64,000 nucleotides of DNA, from positions 1 to 64,000 of the forward strand of contig CBDBHB010000008.1 in the NCBI GenBank assembly GCA_965205505.1. The letters run 5' to 3'. The notes below the pieces were generated by a model. The model ran no database searches, was not told where the DNA came from, and worked only from the letters and a program-made list of their open reading frames with translations. Positions within the stretch are counted from its first letter, which is position 1. Each line of letters begins with the position of its first letter. This document shows, in pieces, positions 3,279 to 7,652 of this stretch. The position numbers and the translations under genes were made by a program. The stretch comes from Acidobacteriota bacterium. GTDB taxonomy: Bacteria > Acidobacteriota > UBA890 > WLXD01.

Positions 3279-3463
3279 GACGGGTGCGTAACAATGCGGC
3301 GTCGCATCACTTCCCCTGCTGGTAATCGTCAAGGCTTGCGGGTATCGTCAGCCGCCGGGCGGCGAACTGATGCCCATCTTCGCATGAGGCCGCTGTCGTA
3401 GAGCCCCAGCAGTGGGGCTGGCGTCAATGCCCGACCCACTCGCTAGCCTCCCGAGCCGACGAG

Positions 3464-5109
3464 ATGCCGCCTCCAGACTCCACTCACACCTCGTCGCGTC
3501 GTGCCATCGCGGGTGCGAGCCTCGTCGTGTTCACCAGCTCGGCGTTCATCATGACGCTGGAGATCGTCGCGGCGCGCCTCGTAGCACAGCATCTGGGCGT
3601 ATCGCTCTACACCTGACGGCGGTAATCGGAGTGGTGCTGGCAGGGATCGCCGTGGGCAACTACGTCGGCGGCAAGCTTGCTGACCTGTATCCGCCCCGCG
3701 CCCTGTTGACGACCTTGTTCCTGCTGGCCTCGATGTCGAGTCTTTCCGTGCTGTTCGTCGTCGACTGGATGGGGTCTTGGGAGAGGCCGGAGGTCATCTC
3801 TTGGCCGCTCTGGATCCTTCGCAACGTCGCCCTCACGTTTCTTGCCCCGGCAACCATCATGGGCACGATCTCGCCCGTGGCAGCCAAGCTGGCTCTCGGA
3901 GCGCGACGTGAAGTGGGCGCGACGGTTGGAACCTTGTACGCGAGCGGTGCCTCCGGAAGCATCCTCGGCACGTTCCTTACCGGCTACGTGTTGATCGATG
4001 CCTTCGGCACCAAGACGATCGTCTGCGTCATCGCCGCGGGCCTCGGGACAATGGGCCTGCTAGCGGGACGGGGTTTGCGCCGCAGCCCTGCTTCGTTCTT
4101 CGTGGTCTGGCTATCGTTGCTGTTTCTGATCTCTGCCCTAACCGTGGCGCCGTGGGCGTGGAGCGAGCGCTGGGGCCATTTCTTGGGCCTACGCTTCGCT
4201 ACCGACCATCTTCACTATCAGGACGAGAGCAGCTACTTCACGATCGAGATCTATGACGCCGAGGAATTCGACAACACCCGCGTGTTGGCGCTGGATCATC
4301 TCGTGCACAGCTACGTGAACATGGACGACATCACGCAGCTGGACTACGGCTATGAGACCGTCTACGCCGCGGTGACCCACCACTTGGTAAACACTGACGA
4401 GCCCTTGCGCGCGCTGTTCATCGGCGGTGGTGGTTTTACGTTTCCGCGCTATCTCGATACGCGTTTCGCGGCAGCAGATATCGACGTCGCCGAGATCGAC
4501 CCGGCAGTCAAGCGTGCCGCTCAGGTCGCTCTGGGCCTGCCCGCCGACGATGCTACCCGCATCCGGACGCACACGCTGGACGCTCGCAATTACATCGACG
4601 ATCTGCGGCGGCAGAATCGACGCGTGACGCACCCACATCAATTCGACTTCGTATACGGAGACGCGTTCAACGACCTCGGCGTGCCCTACCACCTGACCAC
4701 ACGGGGCTTCAACGAACGCCTGGCCGAAGTAATGACGCCCGACGGCGTCTACATGATCAACATCATCGATATCTATCGTGAGGGTCTGGGCCGGTTCTTG
4801 GGTGCTTATGTAGGCACCGTGCGATTGACGTTCCCGTTCGTCTACGTGTTCGCTGGCGACCCGGATGGACCCACGGACGAGCGCGACACTTTCATCGTGG
4901 TGAGCTCTCGACGAGCCTTACCGATCCTGGAGATCGGACCTAAAGAGAACGTTCCGGACGCCTGGGGCCACGTGTTTGCCTGGGCCGAGGCCGATCACCT
5001 AGGTGGAGAGATGGCGACAGTGCTGCAGCGCGGCGGTGGGTTGGTGCTGACCGACGACCACGCACCCGTCGACAATCTACTGGCGCCCGTCTTCTCGGAC
5101 AGCAAGTGA
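3464..5109 (+). CDS. Fused MFS/spermidine synthase-like membrane protein (frameshift near 3614)
   Basis: N-terminal frame MPPPD...FIMTLEIVAARLVAQHLGVSLYT joins TAVIGVVLAGIAVGNYVGG; C-terminal IGGGGFTFP, EIDP, DAR, DAF, HLTT, LTDDHAPVD. Confidence 0.85.
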
Positions 5110-5187
5110 GAGGCGCTGCAGCTGGGGCGCGACATGCTCGCGACGAAGCTCACAAGAGAGACCTCGACAGCCCAGCCTAGTGGCCTC

Positions 5188-5462
5188 TAGTGGCCTGTAA
5201 CAGATGATCGTCGCATATCGCAGATGGGATTTGCGGGTGAGATCAAGGCGCGGCGAGGAAGGCGATGCAATAGGCATCATCGACGAGGCGCAACGCCGAT
5301 ATCGCCCGCAACTGCCCATCTGTCCGCAGGATGGCTGCGAAATCGGCCCGTCTGCGGCGTTACTCCTCCTCCAAGATGGGCAAACATCGTCTCGTCGTCG
5401 CGCCTGGCATCCGGACCCATTTCGCCACCACGATATGCAACGATCATCTGTTACAGGCCACT
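5188..5462. repeat. ERIC-like cloverleaf miniature element, copy 1 (right end split by the IS110 insertion; final A at 6869)
   Basis: TIR TAGTGGCCTGTAACAGATGATCGTCGCATATCG (5188-5220) vs 5431-5462, 1 mismatch; two inverted internal hairpin arms with CAAGGCG...CAACGC; central TCC-GCA-GGA. Confidence 0.85.
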
Positions 5463-5499
5463 TCTATGAGAAGGCCTAGTTCGGTCAAGGGCAATGTGG

Positions 5500-5700
5500 T
5501 GCCCAGCGAAGAATCGATCTGCACGCCATGCTCCTATTCGCACTCTGGTGGACGAGGATTCAGGTCGTCCGGTGCATTCTGGGGTCCGTCCCGATTCGAG
5601 GCGCTGCAATCTAGCTGCCGAGCTCGAAGCTCGTAGTGACCTTCGCAGTCGCCCGGACCGGGCGGTCAGATCGATAACCGTTGGGTCGCGTCGCCCTACC
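5500..5700 (-). ncRNA. Predicted bridge RNA / seekRNA of the IS1111-group element
   Basis: Closing stem ATCGATCTG/CAGATCGAT; target-binding loop CTGCGA-[AGGTCACT]-A-CGAGC-TTCGA-GCTCG-GCAG-[CTAG]-A-TTGCAG (5604-5648) matches the insertion target; RNA ends not known. Confidence 0.7.
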
Positions 5701-5722
5701 GACCTCCTGGTTGCGGGTTAGT

Positions 5723-6769
5723 TCATGCTGCTGAAACCTCTACAGGTGCGCGCAACGGTTCGTACTCGTCTCCACTCAGCCACAGTCGGTGCAGCACAAC
5801 GGCGAGCTTACGGGCGACAGCAACTGCTGCCTTTTTGTTGCCATGAGGACCACCGCGTCCGGCCAGCTTGAGCCCCCAGCGTCTGAGCTCAGTATCGGGC
5901 CCGAAGGGGCCCAGGATGTAATGCGCCGAGCCCACCAACAGGCGTCGGAGCATTTTGTCGCCCGCCTTGGTTATTCGTAGCGCAGGGTCCTTGTCCCCCG
6001 ACTGCCGTTTCTTCGGTCTCAGTCCCAGGTACGGGCCCACGGCTCTGGAGGTATTGAACCGCTCCGGCTCCTCGAGCGTCAGCACATACGCCAGTGCGGT
6101 CAGAGCTCCGACCCCGGCCACTTGCTGGAGCTGCTGTGTCTCCGGGTATCGCCCCTGGCACAGCTGCACGATCTGACGCTCGTATTGCTGGATGTTGCCC
6201 GTCAGCATGGCGATCGTTTCAAGCACCGGCTCGAGCGCTCCCTTGAGCCGCTCCGGTATGTGCTCTGGCGCGGTGCGCGCGAACGCCGGCGTCGAGCACC
6301 TGGGAATACGACAACCGGCCGACTTGACCGCACCACGCACATGGCTCACCAACTGCGTGCAGCTCTTTACCAGAGCATCTCGGCTCCGAATCACGGCTAG
6401 ATCCGCTCGCGCTTGTCTGCCTCGATGCTGCACCGTCTTAAGCAGCTTTGGGTCCATTCTGCCCACTCGTGCCAGGTGCTCGGCATCCAACCGGTCGGTC
6501 TTGTCGTGCTCGCCATAGATCAGCTTCAGCCGCCTCGGGTTAGCCACCAGCACCTCATGACCCAGTTGCTTCAACTGCTCACTCATCCACGGCGAGTGCG
6601 TTCCAACCTCCAGCACTACTCGAGCGGGCTCCTCGCACCCGAACCGCCTCGCCAGCCCCTCCGGGCTCGTCCTCACCCGCCCTTCCTCCATCACCCTGCC
6701 CTTACTGTCGAGCACGCACATACGGCTGTACCGGTCGCTTACGTCCAGTCCAATCGTTACACTTGTCAT
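5723..6769 (-). CDS. IS110 family DEDD transposase/recombinase
   Basis: IGLDVS, VLEVG, KTDRLD (RuvC-like DEDD); GVGALTA; GLRPKKRQSG (conserved Ser); AVARKLAVVLH. Confidence 0.96.
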   Translation of the reverse strand: MTSVTIGLDVSDRYSRMCVLDSKGRVMEEGRVRTSPEGLARRFGCEEPARVVLEVGTHSPWMSEQLKQLGHEVLVANPRRLKLIYGEHDKTDRLDAEHLARVGRMDPKLLKTVQHRGRQARADLAVIRSRDALVKSCTQLVSHVRGAVKSAGCRIPRCSTPAFARTAPEHIPERLKGALEPVLETIAMLTGNIQQYERQIVQLCQGRYPETQQLQQVAGVGALTALAYVLTLEEPERFNTSRAVGPYLGLRPKKRQSGDKDPALRITKAGDKMLRRLLVGSAHYILGPFGPDTELRRWGLKLAGRGGPHGNKKAAVAVARKLAVVLHRLWLSGDEYEPLRAPVEVSAA

Positions 6770-6770
6770 C

Positions 6771-6854
6771 GGCCAACCTCCTTGGGCTTCGAGCCCGTTA
6801 CGTTTGAAGAAACGTTTGCAGAGCCGTCAGGCTACTGCGTTCAGGAGGTTGGCC
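6771..6854 (-). promoter_or_regulatory. 12-bp stem sequestering the transposase Shine-Dalgarno
   Basis: GGCCAACCTCCT (6771-6782) and AGGAGGTTGGCC (6843-6854) are inverted; on the minus strand the 3' arm is GGAGG-TTGGCCG-ATG. Confidence 0.6.
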
Positions 6855-6866
6855 TTCTCATCTCAT

Positions 6867-7652
6867 CTAGACGTCCCGCAGCGGCGCCAGGAGGGAACGC
6901 AGGTGCGCGTGCACATGCCCGTTCGTCGCCACGATGTTGCGGCCATGGAGCAGCTTCTGCAGGTCGTCGTTGCCAGCACAATCGGTCACGCGGCCACCCG
7001 ACTCGCTCACCAGCAGGATCCCGGCCGCCACATCCCAAGGCTCCAGGTGCAGCTCCCAGAAGCCGTCGAAGCGACCACAAGCCACCAGGGCGAGGTCCAG
7101 CGCAGCCGACCCCAGCCGGCGCAGCCCGCCCGCCACCGCACCGACGCGCGGAACGTTCTCGAGGTTGTTGTCGGCAAGAGTGTCGCGCGCGTAGGGAAAC
7201 CCGGTGGCCAGAATCGCATCGCTCAGGTCGGCCGTATCGGAGACGGCTGCCGGAGCACCATCCAGCGTCGTGCCACCGCCACGCCGGGCAGCGAAAGTCA
7301 TCTGCAACATCGGAGCGTGCACCACGCCCGCAACCAATTCTCCATCCTCGATCACCGCAATCGCGACGCACCACAAAGGGAGGCCATGGAGAAAATTGAC
7401 CGTGCCGTCGAGCGGATCGATCACCCATAGGCGATCCGAGCCGACGCGACGACGGCCAGACTCCTCGGCCAGCACATCGTCTTCGGCGGGGATCCGGTCC
7501 AGAATCCAGCGCTCCGTCTCCACATCGGCGGCACTCACGAGATCGCGCCGACGGCCACCTTTGCGATCGGCGTGCGCGGCATTCAAGCTGCCGTAGTACC
7601 CCATCAGAACGGTACCGGCACCGTGGGCGAGGTCGACGAGCTGATCCAACAC
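6867..7652 (-). CDS. suhB: Inositol monophosphatase family protein
   Basis: DLVSAAD, LAEESG, WVIDPLDGTVNF, RRLGSAALDLA, WDVAAG; GTG 7652 taken as start. Confidence 0.9.
   Translation of the reverse strand: MLDQLVDLAHGAGTVLMGYYGSLNAAHADRKGGRRRDLVSAADVETERWILDRIPAEDDVLAEESGRRRVGSDRLWVIDPLDGTVNFLHGLPLWCVAIAVIEDGELVAGVVHAPMLQMTFAARRGGGTTLDGAPAAVSDTADLSDAILATGFPYARDTLADNNLENVPRVGAVAGGLRRLGSAALDLALVACGRFDGFWELHLEPWDVAAGILLVSESGGRVTDCAGNDDLQKLLHGRNIVATNGHVHAHLRSLLAPLRDV

What the first reader, a model, noticed from the sequence alone, without database searches (positions are those of the whole stretch)
5455..6870. IS1111-group bridge recombinase apparently programmed against the end of the cloverleaf element
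Seen: removing 5463-6866 and one CT restores ...TTACAGGCCA-CT-AG, the exact right terminus of cloverleaf copy 1, which also holds the suhB stop codon. In the downstream non-coding end (minus strand, 5604-5648) a CTGCGA/TTGCAG stem encloses AGGTCACT, a CGAGC/GCTCG hairpin, and CTAG. These match target-left plus core (AGGCCACT, one U:G wobble) and the reverse complement of core plus target-right (CTAG). ATAGGAG (5531-5537, minus) resembles the donor junction ATAGAAG. Established: IS110/IS1111 recombinases use a bridge/seekRNA with left and right target guides around a 2-nt core, and some target REPs or transposon TIRs. Inference: an intact RNA-guided recombinase whose guide parasitises a multicopy, fitness-neutral repeat. 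It is a candidate new orthologue with readable guides.
Basis: partly seen in the sequence, partly recalled or inferred. Interest (0 to 1): 0.85.

Follow-up and report, generated by a model that had tools for sequence, protein, structure and literature searches.

The report
RNA-guided IS1111 element targeting a repeat end
This is an intact insertion sequence of the IS110/IS1111 kind whose own small RNA carries readable guides for a 10-base site at the end of a multicopy genomic repeat: a well-supported but expected new example of a mechanism described in 2024.

Summary
Window 5463-6866 is a 1404-bp IS110-family element of IS1111 layout. The transposase (348 aa) is on the minus strand, with 11-bp subterminal inverted repeats and a 260-nt downstream non-coding region. 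The host genome holds 27 full copies. 30 of 31 left junctions read AGGCCACT (one AGGTCACT) and 27 of 29 right junctions read CTAG. Only these 10 bp are conserved.

The downstream RNA has a stem-enclosed internal loop. One side carries AGGUCACUA (target side plus core, one U:G wobble) and the other carries CUAG. In 45 homologues with other targets, both loop strands change with the flanks; in 35 of 45 the own flank beats every foreign flank. The proposed donor guide AUAGGAG also covaries with the element's end (44 of 47 perfect, five sequence states).

The target is the junction between a 277-bp palindromic repeat and the CTAG it sits in. The repeat is genus-wide; the IS was found only in this genome. 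Sister genomes show this locus without the repeat, and with the repeat but no IS.

It is a new member of a known kind (seekRNA/bridge RNA elements that target repeats). No RNA or activity data exist here.

The parts
5463..6866 (-). The insertion sequence: 1404 bp, or 1406 bp with one copy of the core dinucleotide (CT on +, AG in transposase orientation).
   Evidence: 27 full copies at 98.6-100% identity in the genome with the same ends. A contig joins 5460 to 6867. Sister genomes have the locus without it.
5723..6769 (-). Transposase/recombinase gene, 348 aa, intact in this copy. It has the motif GLRPKKRQSG (GL-P----SG).
   Evidence: Pfam PF01548 (E 1.4e-17) and PF02371 (E 5.4e-17). NCBIfam NF033542 'IS110 family RNA-guided transposase', 202.8 bits against a cut-off of 140. 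Weak matches to the solved ISCro4 and IS621 transposases (E 7.5e-9 and 9.2e-8).
6851..6866 (-). Left end in transposase orientation: 5-nt extension ATGAG (7 nt if the core AG is counted) followed by the subterminal inverted repeat ATGAGAAGGCC (6851-6861).
   Evidence: Read. The same architecture is found in 51 of 82 loci examined.
5463..5476 (-). Right end: subterminal inverted repeat GGCCTTCTCAT (5466-5476) plus the 3-nt extension AGA (5463-5465).
5604..5648 (-). Target-binding module of the predicted bridge/seekRNA. Stem CUGCGA (5648-5643). Guide 1 AGGUCACUA (5642-5634). Hairpin (5633-5619). GCAG (5618-5615). Guide 2 CUAG (5614-5611) plus A (5610). Stem UUGCAG (5609-5604).
   Evidence: The stem and hairpin appear in the minimum-energy fold. 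The closing stem is kept with compensatory changes in 37 homologues. The module is invariant in 27 of 27 own copies. The guides covary with the flanks.
5531..5537 (-). Donor guide d2, AUAGGAG. It has the same sense as the right-end extension plus core (ATAGA-AG) with one G:T wobble.
   Evidence: The 7-mer AU + right-end extension + core is perfect in 44 of 47 homologues and perfect-or-wobble in 46 of 47, across five sequence states.
5580..5583 (-). Candidate second donor guide d1 (CCCA), just 5' of the hairpin UGCACC...GUGCG. It would pair with left-end positions 2-5 after the core (TGAG). Here only 3 of 4 positions pair.
   Evidence: Watson-Crick at 4 of 4 positions in 28 of 45 homologues (TGGG/CCCA, TGAG/CUCA, TGAA/UUCA, TAGG/CCUA). 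Weak for this copy.
5539..5576 (-). Conserved hairpin P2 (UGCACC ... GUGCG) between d1 and d2.
   Evidence: RNAalifold pairs 168-173 with 205-211; compensatory changes occur at column pairs 172:207 (3 sequences) and 173:205 (1 sequence).
5483..5488 (-). -35-like hexamer TTGACC, 20 nt from the right end. With the ends abutted, a weak -10 (GAAGAT) would span right end, core and left end.
   Evidence: A TTGA[CT] hexamer lies 14-20 nt from the right end in 48 of 48 homologues, and 18-20 nt in 44 of 48. A junction promoter is reported for ISEc11 (PMC11187229). Inference for this element.
5453..5462 (+). Left half of the split target, ...AGGCCA-CT. It is the right terminus of the 277-bp repeat.
6867..6870 (+). 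Right half of the target (CT core copy plus AG). It also holds the stop codon of the inositol-monophosphatase-type gene.
5186..5462 (.). The 277-bp repeat ('cloverleaf element') whose junction with a host CTAG makes the target. It is complementary to itself over its whole length (about 68% identity to its own reverse complement).
   Evidence: About 23 full copies at 80% identity or more; termini at about 55 loci. Present in sister genomes.

Best explanation
This is an active-looking IS1111-group member of the IS110 family. It chooses its insertion site with an RNA encoded downstream of its recombinase gene.

Target recognition. In transposase orientation the target is CT-AG-TGGCCT, with core AG. 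Guide 1 (AGGUCACUA) sits on the 5' side of a stem-enclosed internal loop. It pairs with the top strand across T, the core and TGGCCT, with one U:G wobble. Guide 2 (CUAG) sits on the 3' side and pairs with the bottom strand of CT plus the core. The A after guide 2 matches the first base of the element's left end rather than the target, like a handshake base.

Donor recognition. The abutted ends of the excised circle are read by a second set of single-stranded segments around a conserved hairpin. AUAGGAG reads the right end plus core. CCCA possibly reads the left end.

Reaction. The DEDD/serine recombinase then exchanges strands at the core, and no duplication results.

Why this site. The 10-bp target arises where a genus-wide 277-bp palindromic repeat sits in a CTAG. 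The genome therefore offered about 100 or more ready sites, many of them outside genes.

Shown: the anatomy, the site specificity, covariation of guides with flanks and ends, and the order of events at this locus. Inferred: that the RNA is made and bound, the circle intermediate, the junction promoter, and present-day activity.
For: Family: Pfam PF01548 and PF02371; NF033542 at 202.8 bits against a cut-off of 140.

Layout: upstream non-coding end 97 nt, downstream 260 nt, 11-bp subterminal repeats, 7-nt and 3-nt extensions. These are the features Siddiquee et al. give for IS1111 (PMC11187229, Results read).

Site specificity: 30 of 31 left junctions are AGGCCACT, and the one exception, AGGTCACT, matches the guide perfectly. 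27 of 29 right junctions are CTAG. High information content (1.6-2 bits per position) is confined to these 10 positions, which are the positions the guides cover. Of the 31 left junctions, 12 lack the repeat's internal motif within 12-32 nt of the junction; about half of those still carry a short terminus-like tail.

The guide module is invariant in 27 of 27 copies.

Natural re-direction: G011 (62-68% aa identity) has guide 1 CGGACUCUA against flank T-AG-AGTCCG (9 of 9) and guide 2 GAGUAGA against GAGT-AG-A (7 of 7). L031 (43% identity) has CACGCGCUU and CUAAAGA against its own flanks.

Family test on 45 metagenome and genome homologues, counting contiguous Watson-Crick match from the core. 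Guide 1: own flank mean 4.80, different-target flanks 1.98. Guide 2: 4.42 against 1.40. In 35 of 45 loci the own flank beats every different-target flank. L101 has core GG, and CC, GG and GG appear at the matching places in guide 1, guide 2 and d2.

d2 is perfect in 44 of 47.

Stems are kept with compensatory changes: 8 of 18 pairs.

Order of guides: the top-strand match lies 5' of the bottom-strand match, as reported for IS1111 seekRNAs.

Locus history: G004 has CTAG with neither repeat nor IS; G003 and G002 have the repeat without the IS; G000 has both.

The repeat's 12-mer terminus occurs 105, 91 and 42 times in sister genomes that lack the recombinase at E 1e-40.
Against: No direct RNA evidence. 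Rfam gives no match. RNA-library contigs from one study cover the region, but contigs show neither transcription nor strand, and DNA may be present in such libraries. No circle junction was seen.

In this element the match is weaker than in most relatives. There is a U:G wobble in the middle of guide 1, and only 2 nt beyond the core in guide 2. By the strict contiguous Watson-Crick score it does not stand out: 20% of foreign flanks score as well.

When wobble pairs are allowed, the family-wide margin shrinks to 24 of 45 loci in which the own flank beats every foreign flank.

d2 has a wobble and d1 a C:A mismatch in this copy.

17 of 27 full copies carry frameshifts.

The homologues are related to one another, so the counts overstate independence. 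They fall into 39 target classes among 45 loci.
Confidence: 0.9

Rival explanations
1. Only the target-binding module acts as a guide (the short seekRNA model). The ends are then recognised through the target halves that flank the integrated element and through the protein. On this view AUAGGAG and CCCA are not donor guides.
For: Siddiquee et al. found that an 82-nt seekRNA suffices and that the donor flanks must match the target. In this copy d2 has a wobble and d1 a mismatch. d1 is fully complementary in only 28 of 45 homologues.
Against: d2 follows the right-end extension and the core through five sequence states (44 of 47 perfect). It has the same sense as the end, so it cannot be RNA-RNA pairing within one transcript. 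Durrant et al. report donor-binding nucleotides in a multiloop for many IS1111 orthologues (passages).
Confidence: 0.15
2. Protein or DNA structure, not RNA, picks the site. The recombinase would recognise the palindromic repeat terminus or a hairpin it forms, and the RNA match would be coincidence.
For: Most insertions lie in a self-complementary repeat. The single-element match has a chance probability of about 0.3-2.6%, which alone is not overwhelming.
Against: Some insertions lie away from recognisable repeat copies yet share the same 10 bp, for example C9:818914, C9:1897445, C9:68587 and C6:11751. Conservation stops exactly where guide complementarity stops. Homologues with unrelated, non-repeat targets carry matching loops.
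Confidence: 0.04
3. The copies spread by duplication or recombination together with the repeat, rather than by repeated site-specific insertion.
For: Some copies share 300 nt or more of flank on one side: C7:9918 with C6:424494, C6:11751 with C6:191362, and C6:424494 with C6:512432.
Against: 28 of 29 right flanks are unique over 60 nt, and there are 23 distinct left flanks, many differing only because they lie in repeat copies. Both ends of the repeat are used. Sister genomes have about 40-100 repeat termini and no IS.
Confidence: 0.03

Closest known systems
ISPa11, and ISPpu9/ISPpu10 (IS1111-group elements that insert into REP sequences)
   Same: DEDD recombinase, subterminal inverted repeats, downstream non-coding RNA, and one fixed position and orientation inside a multicopy host repeat. 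The ISPa11 seekRNA co-purifies with its transposase and carries top- and bottom-strand matches in the same order (PMC11187229). ISPpu9 in REPs is taken from the abstract in the search listing only.
   Different: The target here is not a REP. It is the junction between a 277-bp foldback repeat and a CTAG. The best tblastn match among 72,556 plasmid records (PLSDB), which hold many annotated IS110-family transposases, is 36.7% identical; ISPa11, ISPpu9 and ISPpu10 themselves were not compared. No experiments exist for this element.
[quoted passage not shown]
   Same: An IS1111-type element that uses the end of another mobile or repeated element as its site. The 7-nt and 3-nt terminal extensions outside the subterminal repeats match (extension lengths partly recalled; the '7 bp extension' is stated; the paper title is cited).
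   Different: A different host element (a short non-coding repeat, not a transposon) and a different target sequence. The Partridge and Hall paper was not read here.
ISEc11 / ISXne4 (programmable seekRNA, natural re-direction)
   Same: The stem is conserved while the loop strands diverge together with the target. This is the pattern seen here between this IS, G011 and L031. A promoter formed at the circle junction is also shared as a feature.
   Different: ISEc11 was tested experimentally. Here the evidence is comparative only.
IS621 bridge RNA (IS110 group)
   Same: Two guides per loop around a 2-nt core, dual-strand recognition, donor and target modules, and a handshake-type base next to the core (PMC11208160 and PMC11208158, passages).
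   Different: In IS621 the RNA lies upstream of the gene. Here it lies downstream, the guide order is reversed relative to the gene, the subterminal repeats are long, and the donor segments flank a hairpin in a multiloop rather than forming a simple internal loop. Protein similarity is marginal (E 9.2e-8).

Membership tests
IS110 family (DEDD RNA-guided recombinases) | N-terminal DEDD/RuvC-like domain plus the C-terminal Tnp domain | tested here: met
   PF01548 residues 6-149 and PF02371 residues 212-282. NF033542 at 202.8 bits against a cut-off of 140. D9, E54, D92 and D95 are invariant in 26 aligned relatives. Assigning these to the catalytic DEDD is inference.
IS110 family | Conserved serine in G--P----S(T)G | tested here: met
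   GLRPKKRQSG in the translation. S257 is nearly invariant and G258 invariant. The motif is as given in PMC11187229.
IS1111 group | Subterminal inverted repeats of 7-17 bp with short terminal extensions (7 nt left, 3 nt right) | tested here: met
   ATGAGAAGGCC / GGCCTTCTCAT, 11 bp. Left extension AG+ATGAG, right extension AGA.
IS1111 group | The long non-coding region lies downstream of the recombinase gene | tested here: met
   260 nt downstream against 97 nt upstream.
IS1111 group | Transposase of 330-350 aa that clusters with IS1111 relatives | tested here: inconclusive
   The length of 348 aa fits. No tree with named IS1111 and IS110 references was built. The best named hit is an ISAzs32-family protein at 33% identity.
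IS1111 group | Insertion at one position and in one orientation of a specific target, without a target-site duplication | tested here: met
   30 of 31 and 27 of 29 junctions. An empty form skips exactly 1406 bases with a 2-nt overlap. 109 empty AGGCCACTAG sites exist.
seekRNA / bridge RNA systems | The RNA loop carries matches to both strands of the target that overlap at the core; in IS1111 the top-strand match is 5' | tested here: met
   AGGUCACUA and CUAG in one internal loop. Covariation in 45 homologues.
seekRNA / bridge RNA systems | The RNA is expressed, bound by the recombinase and required for circle formation and insertion | not testable with these tools
   Only RNA-library contigs that cover the region. 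These are not evidence of a discrete RNA.
seekRNA / bridge RNA systems | Match to a curated RNA family | tested here: not met
   No Rfam 15 match at E up to 1 in 4800-7400. Whether Rfam holds a model for IS1111-type RNAs was not established.

The most novel reading that the evidence does not exclude
This may be a three-level parasitic stack with a readable code. The first level is a genus-wide foldback repeat that sits in CTAG sites. The second is an RNA-guided IS whose 10-bp target exists only at the repeat-CTAG junction, so each repeat insertion creates two landing pads. The third is made of frameshifted IS copies (17 of 27, in two deletion lineages at distinct loci) that appear to be moved in trans by the intact copies' protein and shared RNA. 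In addition, the clade has at least 7999 related proteins and 45-48 loci read here. It may give a four-segment code: guide 1, guide 2 plus a handshake base, d1 and d2. That would be a compact, naturally diversified IS1111-type bridge RNA scaffold that tolerates U:G and G:T wobbles in both loops.
Probability: 0.45. Interest if true: 0.55.

Novelty: new member of a known kind. Interest (0 to 1): 0.42.

Why it matters
The element adds a well-documented natural case to the bridge/seekRNA recombinases. One genome supplies 27 full copies, about 30 scored junctions and 109 empty sites. Sister genomes capture the locus before the repeat arrived, and after the repeat arrived but before the IS. About 45 relatives have guides that can be read against their own flanks. 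Together these data delimit the recognised positions (10 bp) and show that wobble pairs are tolerated in nature. They also support donor-reading segments in an IS1111-type RNA, for which the published architecture is less settled than for IS621. For genome biology, the case shows an IS using the junction made by another repeat as a safe landing site; here it keeps the neighbouring gene's stop codon intact. It does not change the known mechanism.

Tried and rejected
Rfam scan of 4800-7400: no match.

Genome-contig scan with the single protein: only one locus (L031). The metagenome scan with an alignment was needed.

A strict regular expression for the module found only 14 of 82 loci. It was replaced by anchoring on three conserved blocks. 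31 of 82 loci were then set aside for short contigs, no recognisable ends or other end types. Two more had too little left flank. L080 failed the donor-block pattern. L077 (uncertain register), L064 and L072 (right flank under 8 nt) were dropped before the 45-locus test.

Search for a left-end guide of the form expected by analogy (complement of the core plus ATGAGATG): not found in this element. Only the weaker CCCA segment emerged from comparison.

Reads: no 'go back' joint that would show a circle. The RNA-library contigs give no start, end or strand. Parts without cover mean nothing.

Pairing exact 8-mers to list repeat copies gave too few and was replaced by BLAST.

An RNAalifold pair between CCA (5' of P2) and UGG inside d2 was not adopted. 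It is broken in the elements whose right-end extension is AGA, including this one.

Earlier scan notes were not available.

No structure prediction or complex prediction was run.
Full report
WHAT IS THERE. Window 5463-6866 is a 1404-bp element. Its minus strand carries a 348-aa ORF (6769 to 5723) with Pfam DEDD_Tnp_IS110 (E 1.4e-17) and Transposase_20 (E 5.4e-17). The ORF also matches NCBIfam NF033542, 'IS110 family RNA-guided transposase', at 202.8 bits against a cut-off of 140. It contains GLRPKKRQSG, which is the GL-P----S(T)G motif that Siddiquee et al. describe for IS1111 transposases (PMC11187229, Results read in full).

In transposase orientation the left end reads ATGAG followed by ATGAGAAGGCC. 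The right end reads GGCCTTCTCAT followed by AGA. This gives 11-bp subterminal inverted repeats. The extensions are 7 nt on the left, if one core AG is counted with the element, and 3 nt on the right. The upstream non-coding end is 97 nt and the downstream one is 260 nt. Every one of these features is the IS1111 layout. The closest proteins in the plasmid collection are at most 36.7% identical. The solved ISCro4 and IS621 recombinases match only at E 7.5e-9 and 9.2e-8.

THE OBSERVATION. Removing 5463-6866 and one CT gives TTACAGGCCA-CT-AG. The minus strand of 5604-5648 reads as follows: stem CUGCGA; AGGUCACUA; a 6-bp hairpin CGAGCU-UCG-AGCUCG; GCAG; CUAG; A; stem UUGCAG. AUAGGAG is the reverse complement of 5531-5537.

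The neighbouring inositol-monophosphatase-type gene (Pfam PF00459, E 1.9e-61) ends in a TAG that overlaps the core, and the insertion leaves that stop codon intact.

The minimum-energy fold of the 260-nt region keeps the stem and the hairpin. Its energy is -99.3 kcal/mol, z = -2.67, and 2 of 200 shuffles fold as well. An 8-mer that pairs with the target with at most one wobble occurs in 511 of 20000 shuffles. Together with a CTAG 8-45 nt downstream it occurs in 54 of 20000. Rfam has no match.

OTHER COPIES. The host assembly is 5.98 Mb in 9 contigs. It has 33 BLAST pieces of the element, of which 27 are full copies at 98.6-100% identity.

Of 31 left junctions, 30 read AGGCCACT. One reads AGGTCACT, which matches the guide perfectly. 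Of 29 right junctions, 27 read CTAG. One reads CTAA, and one has an extra CTCAT unit before CTAG. High information content (1.6-2 bits per position) is confined to these 10 positions. It falls to 1.3 bits and below on the repeat side and to 0.1-0.3 bits on the other side. The conserved block therefore coincides with what the two loop strands can pair with.

Of the 31 left junctions, 12 lack the repeat's internal motif within 12-32 nt of the junction, although about half of those still carry a short terminus-like tail. The guide module is invariant in 27 of 27 copies.

The genome holds 109 unoccupied AGGCCACTAG sites against 13.4 expected from base composition. Of these, 79 are ACAGGCCACTAG, against 0.8 expected.

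THE TARGET REPEAT. The 277-bp element at 5186-5462 is complementary to itself over its whole length, at about 68% identity to its own reverse complement. It has about 23 full copies at 80% identity or more, and its termini occur at about 55 loci. Both of its ends are used by the IS.

The repeat and its terminal 12-mer are genus-wide. The 12-mer occurs 105, 91 and 42 times in G002, G003 and G004, against 1-5 for a reversed-pattern control (repeat matches). The recombinase was not found in the four same-genus genomes at E 1e-40 (0 of 4). It was found in 4 of 41 genomes overall, counting G000.

At the orthologous locus, G004 has a plain CTAG before the gene, with no repeat and no IS. G003 has the repeat terminus running ...GTTACAGGCCACTAG straight into the gene. 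G002 also has the repeat without the IS. G000 has both. The repeat therefore came first and sits in a CTAG, so the IS target is the junction of repeat end (AGGCCAC) and TAG. That this points to an IS630-like origin of the repeat (CTAG target, TA duplication) is recalled knowledge and was not tested.

A contig from public run X3 joins 5460 to 6867, skipping 1406 bases with 2 ambiguous bases. Its shorter side is only 25 letters and lies in the repeat, so the support is modest.

DO THE GUIDES GUIDE? The strongest evidence is comparative.

G011 carries an interrupted relative at 62-68% aa identity with the same ends but a different site, GAGT-AG-AGTCCG. Its loop reads CGGACUCUA (9 of 9 against T-AG-AGTCCG) and GAGUAGA (7 of 7).

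L031 is 43% identical and sits in CTAA-AG-CGTGTG. It carries CACGCGCUU (one G:T wobble) and CUAAAGA.

The protein family is very large: at least 7999 proteins at E 1e-30, with the nearest relatives 92% identical. A metagenome scan returned 80 loci. Of 82 loci examined (the 80, plus L031 and this one), 51 show the same end architecture. In 48 of them all three conserved RNA blocks could be anchored. 45 had usable flanks.

In these 45, I counted contiguous Watson-Crick match outward from the core. For guide 1 the mean is 4.80 for the element's own right flank and 1.98 for flanks of different targets. For guide 2 the means are 4.42 and 1.40. In 35 of 45 loci the own flank beats every different-target flank. 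When wobble pairs are allowed the margin shrinks to 24 of 45. The loci are related to each other, so these are not independent trials; they represent 39 target classes.

L101 is a striking case. Its core is GG instead of AG, and guide 1, guide 2 and the donor segment carry CC, GG and GG at the corresponding places.

The order of guides, with the top-strand match 5' of the bottom-strand match, is the one reported for IS1111 seekRNAs and is opposite to the IS110 type.

RNAalifold on 37 sequences keeps the closing stem (GGYGACUGC with GCAGCRCC) and a second hairpin (UGCACC with GUGCG). Compensatory changes occur at 8 of 18 pairs.

THIS ELEMENT IS A WEAK-LOOKING MEMBER BY THE STRICT SCORE. The U:G wobble sits third from the core in guide 1, and guide 2 reaches only 2 nt beyond the core. 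By contiguous Watson-Crick match its own flank is therefore no better than 20% of foreign flanks. What rescues the assignment is threefold: the homologous position of the segments in the loop, the exact fit between the 10 conserved target positions and the pairing span (9 nt for guide 1 with the wobble, 4 nt for guide 2), and the one insertion at AGGTCACT.

DONOR SIDE. In 47 loci the 7-mer at this position equals AU plus the 3-nt right-end extension plus the core. It is perfect in 44 and perfect-or-wobble in 46. Five sequence states covary: GGA-AG, AGA-AG, AAG-AG, GGC-AG and GGA-GG. This element and L105 share the same G:T wobble.

A second segment lies just 5' of the conserved hairpin (CCCA here). 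It is complementary to left-end positions 2-5 in 28 of 45 loci, for example CUCA with TGAG and UUCA with TGAA. In this element and its two nearest relatives, however, it has a C:A mismatch. I regard it as a candidate only. Donor nucleotides around a hairpin in a multiloop agree with what Durrant et al. say of many IS1111 orthologues (passages).

The base after the core in guide 2 equals the first base of the left end in 44 of 47 loci, and equals the first right-flank base in only 4 of 47. This resembles the handshake bases of IS621 (passages). Only L100 (G), and less clearly L097 (C), vary at this position, so the point is a hint.

A TTGA[CT] hexamer lies 14-20 nt from the right end in 48 of 48 loci. 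With the ends abutted, a weak -10 (GAAGAT) would span the junction, as described for ISEc11. This is inference.

STATE OF THE COPIES. This copy's gene is intact. Of the 27 full copies, 12 share a 4-bp deletion (at 6501-6504 in this copy's coordinates) and 5 share a 1-bp deletion (at 6360). All are at different loci. The simplest reading is mobilisation in trans by the intact copies, which is known to work for mini-elements. Gene conversion is not excluded.

EXPRESSION. Contigs from two RNA libraries of one study cover 5406-6686 and 5468-6177. Contigs show neither strand nor ends, and DNA may be present in such libraries. No circle joint was seen. Expression is therefore open.

COMPARISON AND VERDICT. 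The element works like the published IS1111 seekRNA/bridge RNA elements. It meets every membership feature that could be tested, except placement on a reference tree (not done) and a match to a curated RNA family (none). Targeting of host repeats (ISPa11, ISPpu9/10) and of other elements' terminal repeats (IS4321/IS5075) is already known. This is therefore a new member of a known kind, with an unusually complete natural record. The interest is moderate rather than high.

Noticed in passing
window 5177-5196: The 10-bp IS target (as CTAGTGGCCT) is tandemly duplicated at the left terminus of this repeat copy (5177-5186 and 5187-5196). One other locus in the genome shows the same AGGCCACTAG-AGGCCACTAG doublet. 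The origin is unknown; a footprint of IS or repeat activity is possible.
   Followed up: no
G000: 27 full IS copies (e.g. C6:512432, C7:50596, C8:237504; C6:424494, C8:403822): 12 of 27 copies share a 4-bp deletion and 5 of 27 share a 1-bp deletion in the recombinase gene, yet they sit at different loci. This suggests that defective copies are mobilised in trans or homogenised by gene conversion.
   Followed up: partly
G000 C6:11751 / C6:191362; C7:9918 / C6:424494; C6:424494 / C6:512432: Pairs of IS copies share at least 300 nt of identical flank on one side only. One copy shares its left flank with one partner and its right flank with another. This is the signature of rearrangement between copies, segmental duplication or assembly of mixed haplotypes.
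   Followed up: no
window 5186-5462 and sister genomes G002-G004, G007, G013: The 277-bp repeat is an imperfect palindrome over its full length and is flanked by CTAG on both sides. At the orthologous locus G004 has a single CTAG and no repeat. This is compatible with a non-autonomous element that inserts into CTAG. No parent transposase was looked for.
   Followed up: partly
L037:~1413 and L033:~2399 (G011:C1:3908161-3911885): The closest genomic relative of the IS is a single copy whose recombinase gene is split by about 2.7 kb of inserted DNA. Its RNA module and ends are still intact and match its flanks perfectly.
   Followed up: partly
L063, L064, L066, L068, L071, L074-L076, L080, L082, L089, L090, L108-L110, L118: A large subgroup of metagenomic relatives all sit in near-identical sites (..TTCTCSGA-AG-TTCGC..) in different contigs. 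This is probably another multicopy repeat used as a landing site.
   Followed up: no
window 6829-6836 (+ strand): A second 8-mer (AGGCTACT) could pair with the target with one wobble. It lies on the opposite strand in the short upstream non-coding end. Its frequency is consistent with chance.
   Followed up: no
window 3412-5109 (+): A 565-aa ORF upstream of the repeat has no Pfam match at E 0.001.
   Followed up: no
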